Sequence record: HG792104
Length of the DNA stretch: 61,566 bases
DNA from: Escherichia phage P13771
Reading direction: 5' to 3' (one strand)
Part shown: positions 3,001 through 6,000 of the stretch, piece by piece
How the letters are laid out: each line of letters begins with the position of its first letter
How positions within the stretch are numbered: the first letter of the stretch is position 1
Made by a program: the position numbers

Positions 3001-6000
3001 ATCTCAATGGATGGTGTGCCGCATTGGTTACCCCATACATCAAATCCATGCGAGGTGTGGCGGGCGAACAGTTCTATCCGGGGAACATCGCCAAGAAGTT
3101 GCACAAGTTTTTCTCGAGCCATATCCGGCTTGCGGGAGTGATCAAGGCGTGGTGCAGTGAATGACTGGATTATTCCGGCGTTAATGCGTTCGGGCAGATT
3201 TCCTTTCACTGCAAAAAGGCAGTCTTCGCTGTTAGCGCGAGTGGTGCTACCCATACCCATGACCAGCTTGTCGGTCTGTCTTTTCCCGCATTTGTTCCAG
3301 GTTAATCCTTTCATCGTCACCAGACGAAAGCCCCACGCTTCTACAACCTTCAATGCTTCAAGTGGTTGTGTAGGCACCCACCACATAGCCAACAGGCAAT
3401 TCTCGGCTGCCAGTTCCCATACCGGGAGGCGGCAGATATCCAGAAGACTCATGACCGGATATTTAAAACTTGCACCGCGTTGACCATCGGTTGCTTTGTC
3501 GCGGAATGTCCAGGGGGGATCTGCGTAAATGAGGGTGTATTTTTTCGTCATAGCGCGTTTTCAAACTCATCAATGTAAAGTCCTGCTTTAATCAGTCGGC
3601 GACGGCGTTCGGCCTTTTGCACGTATTCCTCGCGACAGTTTTTTGCTGCGTGTTCACGGCTTCTGCGACTGAATGGAGGAACGGCATTGCGTGAGCGAGG
3701 TGTGTCACGACGAGGATTTGATTCGAGGGAGAAAAAGCGATCAACGATTCCGGTGTCTGTGGTGAATGGTTCTGAAGCCTTTATTTTCACAACCTTACTG
3801 CCCTTTGTCAGGCCGCGAGCTACCTTGTTGAACTCGCAAAGTGAAACACCAAATTTCTCTGCTATTTCACTGCCAGTAACAGGACGACCACGAGACTGAA
3901 TCATCCAAGTGACGCGTTCTTTTAACCCACGGAAGGCACCGGGCCTTCCAGAACGCCTGTAGAAAGCGATCTGTTTCAAATTTTTGTCTCCAGATATGAA
4001 AACCCCGACGGGATGTCGGGGATGGTAGGGGAAGTTACAGGCTTAACGAGAAGCCTTTTCGGGAATTTCGATCTGACAATCTTGAAATATCCTGTAGCGT
4101 GCGGCGCATTTCTTCCGTCAGATGCTTGAAGGCGTTAAATTCAGCGACAGCGGCGTCAACGTTATAGCCTTTGCTGTGTAGCTCATTGAGGATGCGCATA
4201 GTTGGGCTTGGCATGTCGAAGAGCACAGAAACGTCCAGGTTAAGAGTTTTTCGATCAACATAGCTCATCATGGAGTAGGGGTGGTGCTCTGAAAACCACG
4301 ATAGAGGGTAGTTGATGTTCATTGGTGCAGGTAAAAGGCTCTGGCGAAGTTTCTTTTCGCACTCGATGAAGTATCGGCGGATCTGGCGGCCTTTTTCGTT
4401 ACGCTCAACCATCGCCAGTTCTTTGGCTGTGTCGAGGGTGAGGTGGTAATCCTTGCGGCGGCGGCCTGGAGTTTTCGCCAAATTTGGCGAAAATAGAATG
4501 TAGTCTAAATTTTCTACGAATCCATACTCGTTTAGCCTGGCCCGTATCCAGTTAGAAAAATCTTTACCTACCTCTAAAAATCCATGCAAATCACGCGCGT
4601 TCACCAGAAGCGTAGGTTCATTTGAGATTGTACCTTCAAACACAGGGATGAGTTGAGTGGTCATGATGACCTCCTTTGGCTTTTTTCGAGAAATGCCACC
4701 ACAAAATGTGGTGCCGGGAGGCTCGAAACGGCCCAAAAGATACCGCGGACTTATTCCCCTTGCGGGTGTTGTATTCGTCGCCCTCCCGACATTGATCGGG
4801 GATGTGACCGCACACTGTGCTATCACTGAATAACAGGCATAAAAAATCCAACACTGACGGGGTTGGTTTAATCCGCTTTTGGGAGGTTTTCGAGGCCTCG
4901 GCGCGGAGTATAGTCAGTATTGGACGCAGTCGTCAACCATCGCAAGCTCTTTGGCTGTGTCGAGGGTGAGGTGGTATTCCTTGCGGTTGTGACCGCCTCT
5001 ACCTTTTGCTTGCCAATTTTGGCAAGCAATAACAAAATCTTGATTTTCAACGAATCCATATTCAGCAATGCGCTCTTTAACCCAGTGCGCGAACATTCTG
5101 CCCACACCAAGAAAAGAGTGTAGCTCACGAGCGTTAACTAGAAGAATTGTTTCGTTGTCGATAGTGCCGTTGAATACGGGGATGAGTTGACTGGTCATGA
5201 TGACCTCCTTTGAAGTTTTAGTTAGCAATCACCAGTTAGTGGCTGGTGATCGGGTGTCAACTAGAGCCTTCAAAGATGCTCCGGGCATATTCCCCTTGCG
5301 GGTATTGTATTACGCCTCTCCACCCGACCTTTGTACGGATGTGACTATGCCAAATTGCAGGCATAAAAAAGCCGCAAAGCTATCGGGTGCGGATGACCGC
5401 TTTGAAGTTCTAGTGCGGTCAGTATGCGATAGCTCTGGCGGATTTGTCAAATCATGTAGGCCTTATCTTGCTGTAAGCCGCGCCATTCGGGCTTTTCCCC
5501 AGATTTGGGGGAAACTATCTGCGAAGTATTCACCTTTGACGGCAAGTTGCAGGTTAGCCACGGTTAACCTCCTGCGGCGGTTCTGGTAGCGGCATCCAGT
5601 GTGTTACCTGCTCAACACCATTGCCCGGCTTAATCGTTGCTTCTCCTCGCCGAAAGGTGCTTCCGGTATAGCGTGCGGAGCATATTAGCGGCTCAACCAG
5701 ATCACTATCGAAATTCACCGAAATAAGTACGTTCTGATTCTTTTTCGGCATTCGCTCACTACAGCTTATCCAACTATCCGGAGTTACCGGATAGTTGCCC
5801 GATAGTGCATTCTGCTCCAGTGATGCTTTTACAAACCACGCTGCCTGAACTATAACGCCATGAATCCAGCGCAAATCAGCATCGCGATCTTTCTTTTTCA
5901 TCTTTTCGCCACTTAAGGCCTTGCTTATGTGGCTGCGTACCAGGTCTTCATGTAATTCCTTCGCCTCCTCAATGGTGAAACCACCAGGCAGAAGAGCCGG

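What the first reader, a model, noticed from the sequence alone, without database searches (positions are those of the whole stretch)
4665..4880. Conserved leader upstream of each AntA/ORF6N cassette: terminator plus a small GCAA-loop hairpin with a compensatory base change
About 85-110 nt upstream of three cassette start codons lies the motif ATTCCC(C/A)TTGC(G/T)GGT(G/A)TTGTATT (plus-strand 4753..4777, 5289..5312, 13581..13603). On the coding minus strand it contains a hairpin, stem-GCAA-stem, where two copies have CCC/GGG stems and the third has CCA/TGG, so the pair changes together. Each leader also carries a hairpin plus T-run further upstream on the minus strand. This repeated terminator-hairpin-gene architecture looks like a shared post-transcriptional or antitermination control element rather than chance.
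Basis: seen in the sequence. Interest (0 to 1): 0.55.

Follow-up and report, generated by a model that had tools for sequence, protein, structure and literature searches.

The report
c4-like antisense RNA guarding antirepressor genes
The three repeated "leaders" are copies of a known but functionally unexplained small RNA (Rfam sRNA-Xcc1) which, judging by its sequence, works like the phage P1 c4 immunity RNA: it is cut out of the transcript of an antirepressor-type gene and pairs with that gene's ribosome-binding site to keep it silent.

Summary
The 23-nt motif occurs exactly three times (none expected), and the GCAA hairpin and its C-G to A-U swap are present. A hairpin plus T-run lies upstream of each copy.

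The motif is only the core of a larger RNA. All three sites are full-length hits above threshold to Rfam RF02221 (sRNA-Xcc1). The window is a TL-2011c-like Stx2a phage, and each copy precedes an AntA or ORF6N gene.

New here: two variable segments of the RNA, the hairpin-2 loop (b') and the 3' junction (a'), are complementary to two boxes at the downstream gene's Shine-Dalgarno region (a2/b2). They are also complementary to a second copy of both boxes in the leader (a1/b1). This pairing covaries across about 150 non-redundant loci (0 of 10,000 permutations reach it).

The geometry matches the annotated a1-b1-c4-a2-b2 layout of phage P1 and the window's own C4/isrK module.

Most likely this is a processed, module-specific antisense repressor of antirepressor translation, and the "terminator" belongs to an IsrK-like leader. 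Repression, RNase P processing and termination are inferred, not shown.

It is a known RNA family with a newly assigned, known type of mechanism.

The parts
4907..4936 (-). Module 1 promoter-like site: TTGACG, 18 nt spacer, TATACT. Predicted transcription start about 4900.
   Evidence: 10 of 12 consensus matches; for coordinates
4876..4894 (-). Module 1 leader target copies. a1 = CUCGAAA (4888-4894), presented in the loop of the small hairpin GAGG..CCUC. b1 = CCCAAAAG (4876-4883), followed by GCGG.
   Evidence: perfect Watson-Crick complements of the sRNA's a' (4722-4728) and b' (4732-4739)
4841..4866 (-). Module 1 leader hairpin CCAAC-CCCGUCAGU-GUUGG plus A-U6.
   Evidence: (dG -4.7)
4705..4790 (-). 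sRNA-Xcc1 copy 1: closing stem, hairpin 1 with the conserved internal loop and GCAA tip (4757-4766), hairpin 2, and an ACCA tail.
   Evidence: RF02221, 74.5 bits (gathering score 53), model positions 1-87; z-score -1.66
4722..4739 (-). Copy 1 antisense segments: b' = CUUUUGGG in the hairpin-2 loop (4732-4739) and a' = UUUCGAG in the 3' junction (4722-4728).
4670..4690 (-). Module 1 mRNA target: a2 = CUCGAAA (4684-4690); b2 = CCAAAGGA (4672-4679), which overlaps the SD AGGAGG (4670-4675). The ATG is at 4662-4664.
4697..4713 (-). Hairpin CACCACA-UUU-UGUGGUG formed by the sRNA's RCCA tail and the sequence just after it.
   Evidence: An equivalent hairpin is seen by eye in most homologues.
4035..4664 (-). 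AntA/AntB antirepressor-family gene controlled by module 1.
   Evidence: PF08346, 1.1e-26; annotated as anti-repressor
5421..5450 (-). Module 2 promoter-like site: TTGACA, 18 nt spacer, CATACT.
5365..5414 (-). Module 2 leader: a1 = ACUAGA (5409-5414); b1 = CUUCAAAG (5400-5407) followed by GCGG; hairpin CCGCA-CCCGAUAGCUU-UGCGG plus C-U6 (5365-5392).
5240..5329 (-). sRNA-Xcc1 copy 2. b' = CUUUGAAG (5268-5275); a' = UCUAGUUG (5258-5265).
   Evidence: 65.4 bits; z-score -2.07
5204..5224 (-). Module 2 mRNA target: a2 = UAACUA (5219-5224; the pairing includes one G-U); b2 = CUUCAAAGG (5207-5215), overlapping the SD (5204-5209). The ATG is at 5196-5198.
4914..5198 (-). Truncated AntA gene (94 aa) controlled by module 2. 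Its 3' end runs into the promoter of module 1.
13711..13740 (-). Module 3 promoter-like site: TTGACA, 18 nt spacer, TATATT (11 of 12 consensus matches).
13642..13698 (-). Module 3 leader: a1 = GCUCAAAAC (13690-13698) in the loop of GGUG..CACC; b1 = GCAAGUAG (13676-13683) followed by CGG; hairpin CCGCG-CCCGACAGACA-UGCGG plus U7 (13642-13669).
13536..13619 (-). sRNA-Xcc1 copy 3 (the CCA-GCAA-UGG tip variant). b' = CUACUUGC (13562-13569); a' = GUUUUGAGC (13552-13560).
   Evidence: 79.6 bits; z-score -2.09
13506..13523 (-). Module 3 mRNA target: a2 = UCAAAA (13518-13523); b2 = CAAGUAG (13508-13514), overlapping the SD-like UAGGA (13506-13510). The ATG is at 13495-13497.
12823..13497 (-). ORF6N-domain gene controlled by module 3.
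   Evidence: PF10543, 2.7e-19
14400..14678 (-). Sister module of the classical type. Promoter at 14649-14678, isrK at 14567-14642 (holds a1/b1), C4 RNA at 14455-14542, a2/b2 plus SD, then the ATG (14400) of a Rha/Ash-type gene.
   Evidence: C4 loop CCUUGAUUG pairs with CAAUCAAGG abutting the SD. Junction GUCCUAA pairs with UUAGGAC both downstream and in isrK.

Best explanation
Each cassette is a self-contained c4-type RNA immunity module. Its order is: sigma70 promoter; short leader carrying target copies a1 and b1 and ending in a weak hairpin plus U-run; an 84-90 nt structured RNA (sRNA-Xcc1 family); target copies a2 and b2 overlapping the Shine-Dalgarno; then an antirepressor-type gene (AntA, AntA', ORF6N).

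Proposed steps:
1. The RNA is excised from the read-through transcript. RNase P makes the 5' cut at the conserved CUAU|G. The closing stem followed by R-C-C-A/C mimics a tRNA acceptor end.
2. The RNA accumulates as a stable species.
3. It uses its hairpin-2 loop (b') and the adjacent 3' junction (a') to pair with a2/b2 on its own mRNA, in cis or in trans.
4. This occludes the ribosome-binding site, so the antirepressor-type protein is not made in a lysogen.
5. The leader copy (a1/b1), released as a short IsrK-like RNA or acting within the nascent transcript, competes for or feeds back on the antisense RNA.

The three copies, and the neighbouring classical C4 copy, have different a'/b' sequences and so form orthogonal regulator-target pairs.

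Shown here: family membership, structure with covariation, the two-box complementarity and its covariation, promoter-like sites, and the identical geometry in P1.

Inferred: processing by RNase P, translational repression, leakiness of the leader terminator, the decoy role of a1/b1, and the biological outcome.
For: Family membership and structure
- Rfam RF02221 hits at 74.5, 65.4 and 79.6 bits against a gathering score of 53, all full length.
- Covariation is seen in the closing stem, the lower stem of hairpin 1 and the hairpin-2 stem across 69 homologues.

Complementarity in the window
- b' and a' of every copy are Watson-Crick complementary to boxes at the SD and in the leader.
- The 4x4 matrix of the window's modules is diagonal-dominant for both run length and duplex energy.

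Complementarity in homologues
- In 76 non-redundant IMG/VR and window loci, b' versus the last 22 nt before the start codon gives a WC run of at least 7 in 66% of own pairs and 2.6% of mismatched pairs. For a' versus the region further upstream the figures are 55% and 10%. None of 10,000 permutations reached either observed mean.
- There are 58 distinct b' segments, and b2 usually ends 5-11 nt before the start codon.
- For the leader boxes, own versus mismatched pairs give 78% versus 11.7% (b1) and 68% versus 14% (a1).
- An independent set of 74 loci, one genome per species, gives a1/b1 81-86% versus 13-16% and b2 43% versus 1.4%, again 0 of 10,000.

Positive controls
- The window's C4/isrK module shows the same geometry.
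- Phage P1 has annotated a1, b1, c4, a2, b2 and icd. There b' is the hairpin-2 loop and a' is the 3' junction. The P1 leader has b1-GCGG-hairpin (loop UCCGAUA)-U-run-GUGUCC, and AAUUAU|G precedes c4.

Processing signals
- Position -1 is U in 71 of 101 sequences and +1 is G in 95 of 101.
- The tail is R-C-C-(C/A) in about 87 of 97.

Downstream genes
- Of 78 unique downstream proteins, 63 fall in clusters whose representative carries KilA-N, AntA, Bro-N, ORF6N, P22_AR_N or Rha, the antirepressor-type N-terminal domains.

Literature
- sRNA-Xcc1 is a discrete 88-nt RNA in Xanthomonas, by Northern blot and end mapping (PMC2996969).
- It has 40,293 RNA-seq reads and a ribosome coverage of 0.02 in an uninduced EDL933 culture (PMC5331693).
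- c4 blocks ant translation at the RBS (PMC12197685), and the C4 precursor is an RNase P substrate (PMC11143913, citing Hartmann 1995).
Against: - There is no experimental datum for these three copies: no mapped ends, no reporter and no toeprint.
- The Rfam C4, c4-a1b1 and isrK models do not hit the Xcc1 modules even at E up to 10. The kinship with c4 therefore rests on architecture and on leader similarity seen by eye.
- The pairing boxes are short (6-9 nt each).
- The leader hairpins are weak, and the leaders fold no better than shuffles.
- 28 Xanthomonadales loci, including the type of the founding sRNA-Xcc1, have a1/b1 but no a2/b2 (0 of 28). SD occlusion is therefore not universal for the family.
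- In the related IsrK system the net effect of the short leader RNA is activation, so the direction of control in vivo is not certain.
- The invariant internal loop of hairpin 1 (AAUACAAYACC / GGGAAUA) has no role in this model.
Confidence: 0.7

Rival explanations
1. P4 CI-like transcription control. The processed RNA pairs with a1/b1 in the nascent leader, and with a2/b2, mainly to cause premature termination. Termination would occur at the leader hairpin plus U-run or through Rho. The primary effect would be an autoregulated transcription attenuator rather than a translational block.
For: - a1/b1 sit immediately 5' of a conserved hairpin plus U-run.
- a1/b1 are the better conserved boxes: 81-86% in the genome set, and present where a2/b2 are absent.
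- In leader 3 the GCGG after b1 can pair with the 5' arm of the terminator, forming a possible antiterminator.
- P4 CI RNA works this way, with seqA upstream and seqC downstream (PMC4825925 discussion).
- In P1, c4 ultimately lowers ant transcription through polarity (own knowledge: Biere et al. 1992).
Against: - b2 overlaps the SD in the phage-type modules, which is the hallmark of translational occlusion.
- The GCGG/CCGC antiterminator pairing is not possible in module 1, whose stem is CCAAC/GUUGG.
- The leader hairpins are weak.
- The two mechanisms are not mutually exclusive.
Confidence: 0.15
2. Purely cis-acting leader switch. The unprocessed 5' UTR folds into alternative structures (a1b1 with a'b', versus a'b' with a2b2) that open or close the SD. 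The conserved core would serve as a binding site for a protein or small ligand, in the manner of a riboswitch or protein-dependent attenuator. No free sRNA would be needed.
For: - All partners lie on one transcript within about 250 nt.
- Alternative cis structures have been demonstrated for isrK-orf45 (PMC4825925).
- The invariant internal loop of hairpin 1 is unexplained and could be a binding site.
Against: - A discrete 88-nt species is seen in Xanthomonas, and a highly abundant species with low ribosome coverage is seen in EHEC.
- The tRNA-like processing signals U(-1), G(+1) and RCC are conserved.
- Some loci carry the RNA with no cognate gene behind it, for example L069, L070 and L085.
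- No Rfam riboswitch matches.
Confidence: 0.1
3. Trans-acting sRNA whose main targets are host (or even eukaryotic host) genes, as assumed for sRNA-Xcc1 in Xanthomonas and Xylella. On this view its position upstream of antirepressor genes is incidental.
For: - The literature treats it as a trans-acting, HrpG/HrpX-controlled sRNA with many predicted targets.
- Xanthomonadales copies lack a2/b2.
Against: - The variable, specificity-bearing segments track the adjacent leader and the adjacent SD, locus by locus, giving 58 or more specificities. A conserved host target would not produce that pattern.
- The genomic context is overwhelmingly antirepressor-type phage genes.
Confidence: 0.04
4. There is no function. 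The three leaders are similar only because the cassettes are recent duplicates, and the flanking boxes are duplication scars.
For: - The AntA genes of modules 1 and 2 are paralogues, and module 2's gene is truncated at the junction with module 1.
Against: - The family spans alpha-, beta-, gamma- and delta-proteobacteria and their phages.
- Stems covary.
- The boxes are complementary to internal loops of the RNA and covary with them, which duplication scars cannot explain.
Confidence: 0.01

Closest known systems
Rfam RF02221 sRNA-Xcc1 (first described in Xanthomonas campestris 8004; PMC2996969; Chen et al. 2011, RNA Biol 8:947, title only seen)
   Same: All three window copies are full-length members above the gathering score. 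They share the same three-way junction, the invariant core AAUACAAYACCCGNAAGGGGAAU and the RCC tail.
   Different: The family is described as an integron-borne, trans-acting sRNA linked to virulence regulators, with unknown targets. No paper found here describes the flanking a1/b1 and a2/b2 boxes or the link to c4. Two papers note in passing that it lies upstream of an ORF6N gene (APSE phages) or of 'symE'. The Xanthomonadales copies lack a2/b2, whereas the window's phage copies have both box pairs.
Phage P1/P7 c4 antisense RNA and the immI operon (Rfam C4 RF01695 plus c4-a1b1 RF03163, clan CL00128)
   Same: - The order is the same: promoter, a1, b1, processed RNA, a2, b2/SD, first gene, with an antirepressor gene in the controlled unit (in P1 behind icd).
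- b' lies in the hairpin-2 loop and a' in the 3' junction.
- b2 ends about 10 nt before the start codon.
- U precedes G(+1), and the closing stem is followed by ACC.
- The leader has b1-GCGG, a hairpin with a YCCGWYA loop, and a U-run followed by GUGUCC.
   Different: - The Rfam C4 and c4-a1b1 models do not detect the Xcc1 modules.
- Hairpin 1 differs. c4 has a plain GC stem with a UUCG loop. Here there is a long hairpin with an invariant asymmetric internal loop and a GNAA tip.
- The closing stem is 8-10 bp rather than about 17.
- The first downstream gene is the antirepressor-type gene itself, with no icd-like ORF.
Gifsy-1 IsrK / STnc1160 / orf45-anrP (PMC4825925); Rfam isrK RF01394
   Same: - The short leader RNA ends at an intrinsic terminator that is partly read through.
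- The leader is complementary to the downstream processed RNA.
- Control falls on the translation of an antirepressor-type gene.
- A true isrK plus C4 module sits in this same window at 14455-14642.
   Different: The Xcc1 leaders have no isrK hit. They have one small a1 hairpin instead of isrK's two 5' hairpins. The activating role shown for short IsrK has not been tested for these leaders.
Phage-plasmid P4 CI RNA with seqA/seqC
   Same: It is a processed immunity RNA flanked by an upstream and a downstream complementary site (as summarised in PMC4825925). By own knowledge it is matured by RNase P.
   Different: CI acts by premature transcription termination rather than SD occlusion. No sequence or model similarity was tested here.
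P22 sar RNA / ant
   Same: A small RNA represses translation of an antirepressor gene (PMC12197685). P22_AR_N-type Ant genes are among the genes that follow sRNA-Xcc1 in other phages.
   Different: sar is a true cis-antisense transcript from the opposite strand. The RNA here is encoded on the same strand, upstream of its target.

Membership tests
Rfam RF02221 sRNA-Xcc1 | Covariance-model score at or above the curated gathering score (53 bits), over the full model. | tested here: met
   74.5, 65.4 and 79.6 bits; model positions 1-87 of 87; not truncated
Rfam RF02221 sRNA-Xcc1 | Closing stem, hairpin 1 with conserved internal loop and GNAA tip, and hairpin 2, all supported by covariation. | tested here: met
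   11 of 14 predicted pairs show double changes (for example 18-48 GC:29 AU:26 CG:6; 54-69 GC:27 CG:17 UA:12). Tip pair: C-G 65, A-U 2, U-A 1, U-G 1.
Rfam RF02221 sRNA-Xcc1 | Expressed as a discrete RNA of about 88 nt. | not testable with these tools
   Literature only: Northern blot and end mapping in X. campestris; 40,293 reads with RCV 0.02 in EDL933, mapped to NC_002655, a record not held here.
c4-type antisense immunity module (P1 immI; Rfam clan CL00128) | Match to the C4 covariance model RF01695. | tested here: not met
   no C4 hit on any Xcc1 copy at E up to 10. The genuine C4 at 14455-14542 scores 78.9 bits.
c4-type antisense immunity module (P1 immI; Rfam clan CL00128) | Two antisense segments of the RNA (a', b') complementary to a2/b2 just upstream of the first downstream gene, with b2 at the ribosome-binding site. 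| tested here: met
   Window. Homologues: (0 of 10,000 permutations). P1 reference geometry.
c4-type antisense immunity module (P1 immI; Rfam clan CL00128) | A second copy of both targets (a1, b1) in the leader upstream of the RNA, on the same transcript. | tested here: met
c4-type antisense immunity module (P1 immI; Rfam clan CL00128) | Leader matches Rfam c4-a1b1 (RF03163) or isrK (RF01394). | tested here: not met
   no hit on the three leaders. The architecture nevertheless equals the P1 leader by inspection.
c4-type antisense immunity module (P1 immI; Rfam clan CL00128) | 5' end generated by RNase P from a longer precursor. | not testable with these tools
   Consistent sequence signals only: U(-1) in 71 of 101, G(+1) in 95 of 101, and an RCC tail in about 87 of 97.
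c4-type antisense immunity module (P1 immI; Rfam clan CL00128) | Represses translation of the downstream gene and hence antirepressor synthesis. | not testable with these tools
   Inferred from the overlap of b2 with the SD.
c4-type antisense immunity module (P1 immI; Rfam clan CL00128) | The controlled unit encodes an antirepressor-type protein. | tested here: met
   AntA, AntA, ORF6N; 63 of 78 homologous loci fall in clusters whose representative has KilA-N, AntA, Bro-N, ORF6N, P22_AR_N or Rha
Intrinsic (Rho-independent) terminator | A stable G+C-rich hairpin immediately followed by a U-run. | tested here: inconclusive
   Hairpin plus U6-7 is present and conserved with covarying stems. The stems are only 5-6 bp with 9-11 nt loops (dG -4.7 to -6.2), and the terminator scan did not call them.
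Riboswitch / ligand-sensing leader | Match to a known aptamer family, or an expression platform coupled to a conserved pocket. | tested here: not met
   No riboswitch family hit at gathering or E-value thresholds. Ligand binding cannot be tested here.
Type I toxin-antitoxin (SymE/SymR-like), as suggested for the Xanthomonas cassette | The downstream protein is a toxin whose mRNA is neutralised by the RNA. | not tested
   The window proteins are AntA/ORF6N DNA-binding types. Toxicity is unknown. The cassette link comes only from bioRxiv 10.1101/2025.06.18.660453.

The most novel reading that the evidence does not exclude
sRNA-Xcc1, C4 and probably P4 CI form one ancient, widespread superfamily of tRNA-like, RNase-P-released 'programmable' immunity RNAs. 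Specificity would be set by two short exchangeable segments.

Each module would be a three-RNA circuit: a leader decoy (a1b1), the antisense RNA (a'b') and the mRNA target (a2b2/SD). This circuit would act as a threshold or timer for antirepressor-type proteins.

Stx phages, including the O104:H4 outbreak type, carry three or four mutually orthogonal circuits. These circuits could decide prophage induction and cross-talk between co-resident prophages independently of CI cleavage.

The invariant hairpin-1 internal loop and the invariant leader-hairpin loop (YCCGWYA, also present in P1) would be docking sites for a still unknown common factor.
Probability: 0.3. Interest if true: 0.7.

Novelty: new member of a known kind. 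Interest (0 to 1): 0.48.

Why it matters
sRNA-Xcc1 is routinely annotated by Rfam-based pipelines in Xanthomonas, Xylella, Haemophilus, Aeromonas, EHEC and symbiont phages. It has been discussed as a virulence-linked, trans-acting sRNA and even as a cross-kingdom one. Its targets have never been established.

The comparative evidence here gives it a concrete, testable target: its own neighbouring gene and its own leader. That places it beside the P1 c4 / IsrK / P4 CI immunity RNAs.

For Stx phages, three AntA/ORF6N genes plus one Rha gene in the early-left region would each be held off by a private antisense RNA. This is directly relevant to how induction, and hence toxin release, is gated. 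Compensatory b'/b2 mutations can test it.

The roughly 60 natural orthogonal loop/target pairs could also serve as a parts list for synthetic riboregulators.

The modules are unannotated in RefSeq E. coli genomes. Each of the two modules searched (1 and 3) is present in 150-160 of 5,426 complete genomes.

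Tried and rejected
- **Global RNAduplex of the whole sRNA against the downstream region.** It gave long artificial duplexes dominated by the tail hairpin. I replaced it with tests of contiguous complementarity that use mismatched-partner controls.
- **Reading the primary papers.** Chen 2011, Hartmann 1995 and Citron & Schuster 1992 are not held. The details of P1 c4 processing therefore rest on a review citation, on the P1 GenBank annotation and on my own knowledge.
- **Locating the expressed EDL933 copy.** The published coordinate 1392052 refers to NC_002655, which is not in the collection. 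In NZ_CP008957 the same coordinate falls in a hok/gef gene with no motif. Which EDL933 copy is expressed remains unknown.
- **The phi24B microRNA-size 24B_1 and its proposed target d_ant.** These lie in the late/lysis region and are unrelated to these modules.
- **Weak Rfam hits.** Betaproteobacteria_toxic_sRNA matched leader 1 at E = 5.2, and a flavivirus repeat also matched. I treated both as chance.
- **Pairing partners for the conserved leader-hairpin loop (YCCGWYA) and for the GCGG after b1.** I tried, by eye, the closing-stem 5' strand, the hairpin-1 tip and the hairpin-2 stem. None covaried consistently. A GCGG/CCGC antiterminator works for modules 2 and 3 but not for module 1.
- **The hairpin-1 internal loop as a kink-turn or an Hfq ARN motif.** It does not fit either consensus by inspection.
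- **The MAFFT alignment of the sRNAs.** It shifts the 5' strand of the closing stem in some subgroups, so the pair counts for that stem are underestimates. I did not build my own covariance model because Rfam's curated model already covers the family.
- **Target-site duplication as the origin of a1b1/a2b2.** Rejected, because the boxes are complementary to internal loops of the RNA and the a-b spacing differs between the two copies.
- **Coding potential.** The GTG-extended ORF 4035-4826 and the small ORFs over 4636-4854 are not conserved in copies 2 and 3. RefSeq starts the gene at the SD-preceded ATG.

Full report
**What the window is.** The stretch 4000-5600 is 100% identical to Escherichia phage TL-2011c (Stx2a phage of E. 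coli O103:H25) and to related Stx-converting phages. In the annotated record the region is the leftward early operon between int/xis and the recombination genes. All genes are on the minus strand. The three genes of interest are annotated as anti-repressor genes (two as 'anti-repressor', one as 'antirepressor Ant'), and nothing is annotated in the gaps before them. Pfam confirms AntA (4035-4664), a 94-aa truncated AntA (4914-5198) and ORF6N (12823-13497).

**Checking the observation.** The degenerate core AATACAANACCNGNAANGGGAAT occurs on the minus strand at 4753-4775, 5289-5311 and 13581-13603 and nowhere else, even with two mismatches allowed. No match appeared in 100 dinucleotide-preserving shuffles. 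A hairpin followed by a T-run precedes each copy, at 4841-4866, 5365-5392 and 13642-13669.

**What the motif belongs to.** A scan of the whole window against Rfam gives three full-length hits to RF02221 (sRNA-Xcc1), all above the gathering score of 53 bits:
- 4705-4790, 74.5 bits
- 5240-5329, 65.4 bits
- 13536-13619, 79.6 bits

The full structure is an 84-90 nt three-way junction: closing stem; hairpin 1 with an invariant asymmetric internal loop; hairpin 2; and a single-stranded tail.

The same scan found a classical C4 antisense RNA (14455-14542) preceded by isrK (14567-14642), upstream of a Rha/Ash-type gene. It also found STnc100, AsxR and three tRNAs further right.

Each copy folds moderately better than shuffled sequence (z-scores -1.7 to -2.1). 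In an alignment of 69 non-redundant homologues, 11 of 14 predicted pairs show double compensatory changes.

**What is known about the family.**
- sRNA-Xcc1 was found as an 88-nt RNA in Xanthomonas campestris by cloning, Northern blot and end mapping (PMC2996969).
- It is treated in the literature as an integron-borne, trans-acting RNA linked to virulence regulators, with only predicted targets.
- Two papers note in passing that it lies upstream of an ORF6N gene in APSE phages (PMC7313666), or upstream of 'symE' in Xanthomonas integron cassettes, 'suggesting a divergent regulatory mechanism'.
- In EHEC EDL933 grown without inducer it had 40,293 RNA-seq reads, similar to CsrB, with a ribosome-coverage value of 0.02 (PMC5331693).
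- In the library I could search, none of the 24 papers that hold the term 'sRNA-Xcc1' looked, by title or by the passages I read in seven of them, to give it a mechanism or link it to c4; a search for 'c4-like' found nothing relevant.

**The new finding: two-box complementarity.** Reading the three copies side by side, two segments differ between copies. These are the hairpin-2 loop (b') and the junction between hairpin 2 and the 3' strand of the closing stem (a'). Each is complementary to a short box just upstream of the start codon of the next gene.

| Copy | b' | b2 | a' | a2 |
|---|---|---|---|---|
| 1 | CUUUUGG | CCAAAGG (overlaps the SD; one G-U) | UUUCGAG | CUCGAAA |
| 2 | CUUUGAAG | CUUCAAAG | UAGUUG | UAACUA |
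| 3 | CUACUUG | CAAGUAG | UUUUGA | UCAAAA |

A second copy of both boxes lies in the leader upstream of the RNA:

| Copy | a1 | b1 |
|---|---|---|
| 1 | CUCGAAA (4888-4894) | CCCAAAAG (4876-4883) |
| 2 | ACUAGA | CUUCAAAG |
| 3 | GCUCAAAAC | GCAAGUAG |

Each module also has a good sigma70-like promoter just upstream of a1. Module 1 has TTGACG-18-TATACT ending at 4907. Module 2 has TTGACA-18-CATACT ending at 5421. Module 3 has TTGACA-18-TATATT ending at 13711. A fourth such site lies exactly in front of isrK. The hairpin plus T-run therefore lies inside the module's own transcript, between a1/b1 and the RNA.

**Is the complementarity more than chance?** I collected loci that hold the core pattern from IMG/VR. 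For each I located the closing stem and the next ORF. I then compared each RNA's variable segments with its own flanks and with the flanks of every other locus.

In 76 non-redundant loci with an ORF start 25-70 nt behind the RNA:
- b' versus the last 22 nt before the start codon gave a Watson-Crick run of at least 7 in 66% of own pairs and 2.6% of mismatched pairs.
- a' versus the stretch further upstream gave 55% versus 10%.
- None of 10,000 permutations reached either observed mean.
- There were 58 different b' sequences, and b2 usually ended 5-11 nt before the start codon.

For the leader copies, own versus mismatched pairs gave 78% versus 11.7% (b1) and 68% versus 14% (a1), again 0 of 10,000.

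A second, independent sample (one genome per species) gave 74 further unique loci. There a1/b1 complementarity was found in 81-86% (13-16% mismatched) and b2 in 43% (1.4% mismatched), again 0 of 10,000.

The lower b2 figure has a clear cause. A block of 28 Xanthomonadales loci has a1/b1 (27 of 28) but never a2/b2 (0 of 28). By genus and gene context this block includes the type of the founding sRNA-Xcc1. In the remaining loci about 72% have b2.

Within the window, the 4x4 matrix of the three Xcc1 copies plus C4 against the four targets and the four leaders is diagonal-dominant, both in run length and in duplex energy. The modules are therefore mutually orthogonal.

**Positive controls.** The window's genuine C4 shows the same geometry. 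Its hairpin-2 loop CCUUGAUUG pairs with CAAUCAAGG abutting the SD of the Rha gene (ATG at 14400). Its 3' junction GUCCUAA pairs with UUAGGAC both downstream and inside isrK.

The richly annotated P1 genome lists the following:
- a1 at 48255-48261
- b1 at 48269-48276
- c4 at 48343-48419
- a2 at 48423-48429
- b2 at 48452-48459
- icd starting at 48470

In the P1 sequence, b' is the hairpin-2 loop and a' is the 3' junction.

The P1 leader reads b1-GCGG-ACAA-CCGC[AGAUUUCCGAUAUU]GCGG-UAUUUUUGUGUCC, and AAUUAU precedes the G(+1) of c4. The Xcc1 leaders have the same layout:
- a1 in a small hairpin loop;
- b1 followed by GCGG;
- a hairpin whose loop carries YCCGWYA (98 of 109 homologous leaders, with 37 different covarying stems);
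- a U-run followed by (A/G)UG(C/U)C;
- CUAU just before G(+1).

I therefore regard the Xcc1 modules as relatives of the P1 immI c4 module.

The differences are in hairpin 1, which has an invariant internal loop AAUACAAYACC / GGGAAUA and a GNAA tip instead of a plain UUCG hairpin, and in a shorter closing stem. The Rfam models for C4, c4-a1b1 and isrK do not detect the Xcc1 modules even at E up to 10. They are therefore not members of those families in the formal sense.

**How it most likely works.**

*Shown:* family membership; structure; promoter-like sites; two-box complementarity to both the SD region and the leader, with covariation; and antirepressor-type downstream genes. Of 78 unique downstream proteins, 63 fall in clusters whose representative carries KilA-N, AntA, Bro-N, ORF6N, P22_AR_N or Rha.

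*Inferred:*
- The RNA is released from the read-through transcript. The 5' cut is made by RNase P, because U(-1), G(+1), a helical 'acceptor' stem and an R-C-C-(C/A) tail are conserved, and because the C4 precursor is a known RNase P substrate.
- The RNA then pairs with a2/b2 and blocks 30S binding, as c4 does for icd/ant.
- The leader, ending at a weak terminator, yields a short a1/b1 RNA that can titrate the antisense RNA. Alternatively it is the site where the antisense RNA feeds back on its own transcription. Short IsrK acts in trans on its own read-through mRNA in Gifsy-1, and P4 CI uses an upstream and a downstream site to terminate transcription.

I put about 0.7 on SD occlusion by the processed RNA as the main action in these phage modules. 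The termination-based and cis-only variants are the main rivals.

**Weak points.**
- No experiment bears on these copies.
- The boxes are short.
- The leader hairpins are weak (dG -4.7 to -6.2 kcal/mol), the leaders fold no better than shuffles, and the simple terminator scan did not call the hairpins.
- The Xanthomonadales subclass shows that the family can exist without a2/b2.
- The invariant hairpin-1 internal loop and the invariant leader-hairpin loop have no role in the model.

**Novelty and significance.** The RNA family is already in Rfam, and the mechanism type has been known since the P1 c4 work. This is not a new kind of system.

What appears to be new, within the literature I could search, is the assignment of sRNA-Xcc1 to the c4/IsrK/CI class, with its own leader and its own downstream gene as targets. 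Also new is the picture of a Stx2a phage carrying four orthogonal antisense-guarded antirepressor-type genes.

The two modules I searched for (1 and 3) lie unannotated in RefSeq E. coli genomes. Each is present in 150-160 of 5,426 complete genomes, including O104:H4.

I rate it a new member of a known kind, of moderate interest.

Noticed in passing
window 14400-14678 (-): A complete classical module: promoter, isrK (14567-14642), C4 RNA (14455-14542), then a Rha/Ash-type gene (ATG at 14400). The C4 loop and junction are complementary to boxes at the gene's SD and inside isrK. RefSeq annotates only the CDS.
   Followed up: yes
window 4841-4866, 5365-5392, 13642-13669 (-); L243 (phage P1) 3280-3320: The leader hairpin before the U-run has a conserved loop motif, YCCG(A/U)(U/C)A, while its stem covaries (37 stem variants). 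The motif is also present in the P1 c4 leader. No pairing partner or binding factor could be found for it.
   Followed up: partly
window 4751-4775, 5287-5311, 13579-13603 (-): The internal loop of hairpin 1 (AAUACAAYACC on the 5' side, GGGAAUA on the 3' side) is invariant across phyla. It plays no part in the antisense model and does not fit a kink-turn or an Hfq ARN motif by inspection. It may be a tertiary or protein-docking element.
   Followed up: partly
window 4905-4985: The AntA gene of module 2 is truncated to 94 aa at a point where homology to the module-1 AntA gene ends (ELAMV|). The -35 box of module 1's promoter lies inside its last codons. The tandem cassettes therefore look like the product of recombination between AntA genes.
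   Followed up: partly
loci L124, L127, L129, L137, L143, L151, L174, L176 and 20 more (Xanthomonas, Rhodanobacter, Dyella, Luteimonas and others): A Xanthomonadales subclass of sRNA-Xcc1 keeps a1/b1 in the leader (27 of 28) but has no a2/b2 at the downstream SD (0 of 28). The downstream proteins (about 220-255 aa or about 89 aa) have no Pfam match. The RNA may act only on its own leader there, or on an unlinked target.
   Followed up: partly
L069, L070, L085 (IMG/VR): Some contigs carry an sRNA-Xcc1 copy that is followed not by its cognate a2/b2 and gene but directly by another promoter and leader or by unrelated sequence. These orphan copies could only act in trans.
   Followed up: no
window 4697-4713, 5229-5249, 13528-13542 (-): The RCC(A/C) tail of each sRNA is the 5' arm of a small hairpin whose 3' arm lies just beyond the Rfam model. 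In the window's C4 module the corresponding hairpin carries a2 in its loop. This may be relevant to 3'-end formation or to RNase P access.
   Followed up: no
window 25803-26062 and 24146-24397: STnc100 (207.5 bits) and the anti-sRNA AsxR (a perfect match) lie next to each other, with three phage tRNA genes (Met, Arg, Arg) upstream. These are the known Stx-phage late-region RNAs.
   Followed up: no
window 4035-4826 and 4636-4854 (-): Mechanical ORFs run through sRNA copy 1: a GTG-started extension of AntA and a 72-aa ORF. They are not conserved in copies 2 and 3 and are not annotated, so they are treated as spurious.
   Followed up: partly
literature (PMC12189769): Xylella fastidiosa Temecula1 has five sRNA-Xcc1 homologues in tandem, about 385 nt apart, in a genomic island. 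The De Donno strain has an sRNA-Xcc1 next to an isrK plus C4 pair, the same neighbourhood as in this window.
   Followed up: no
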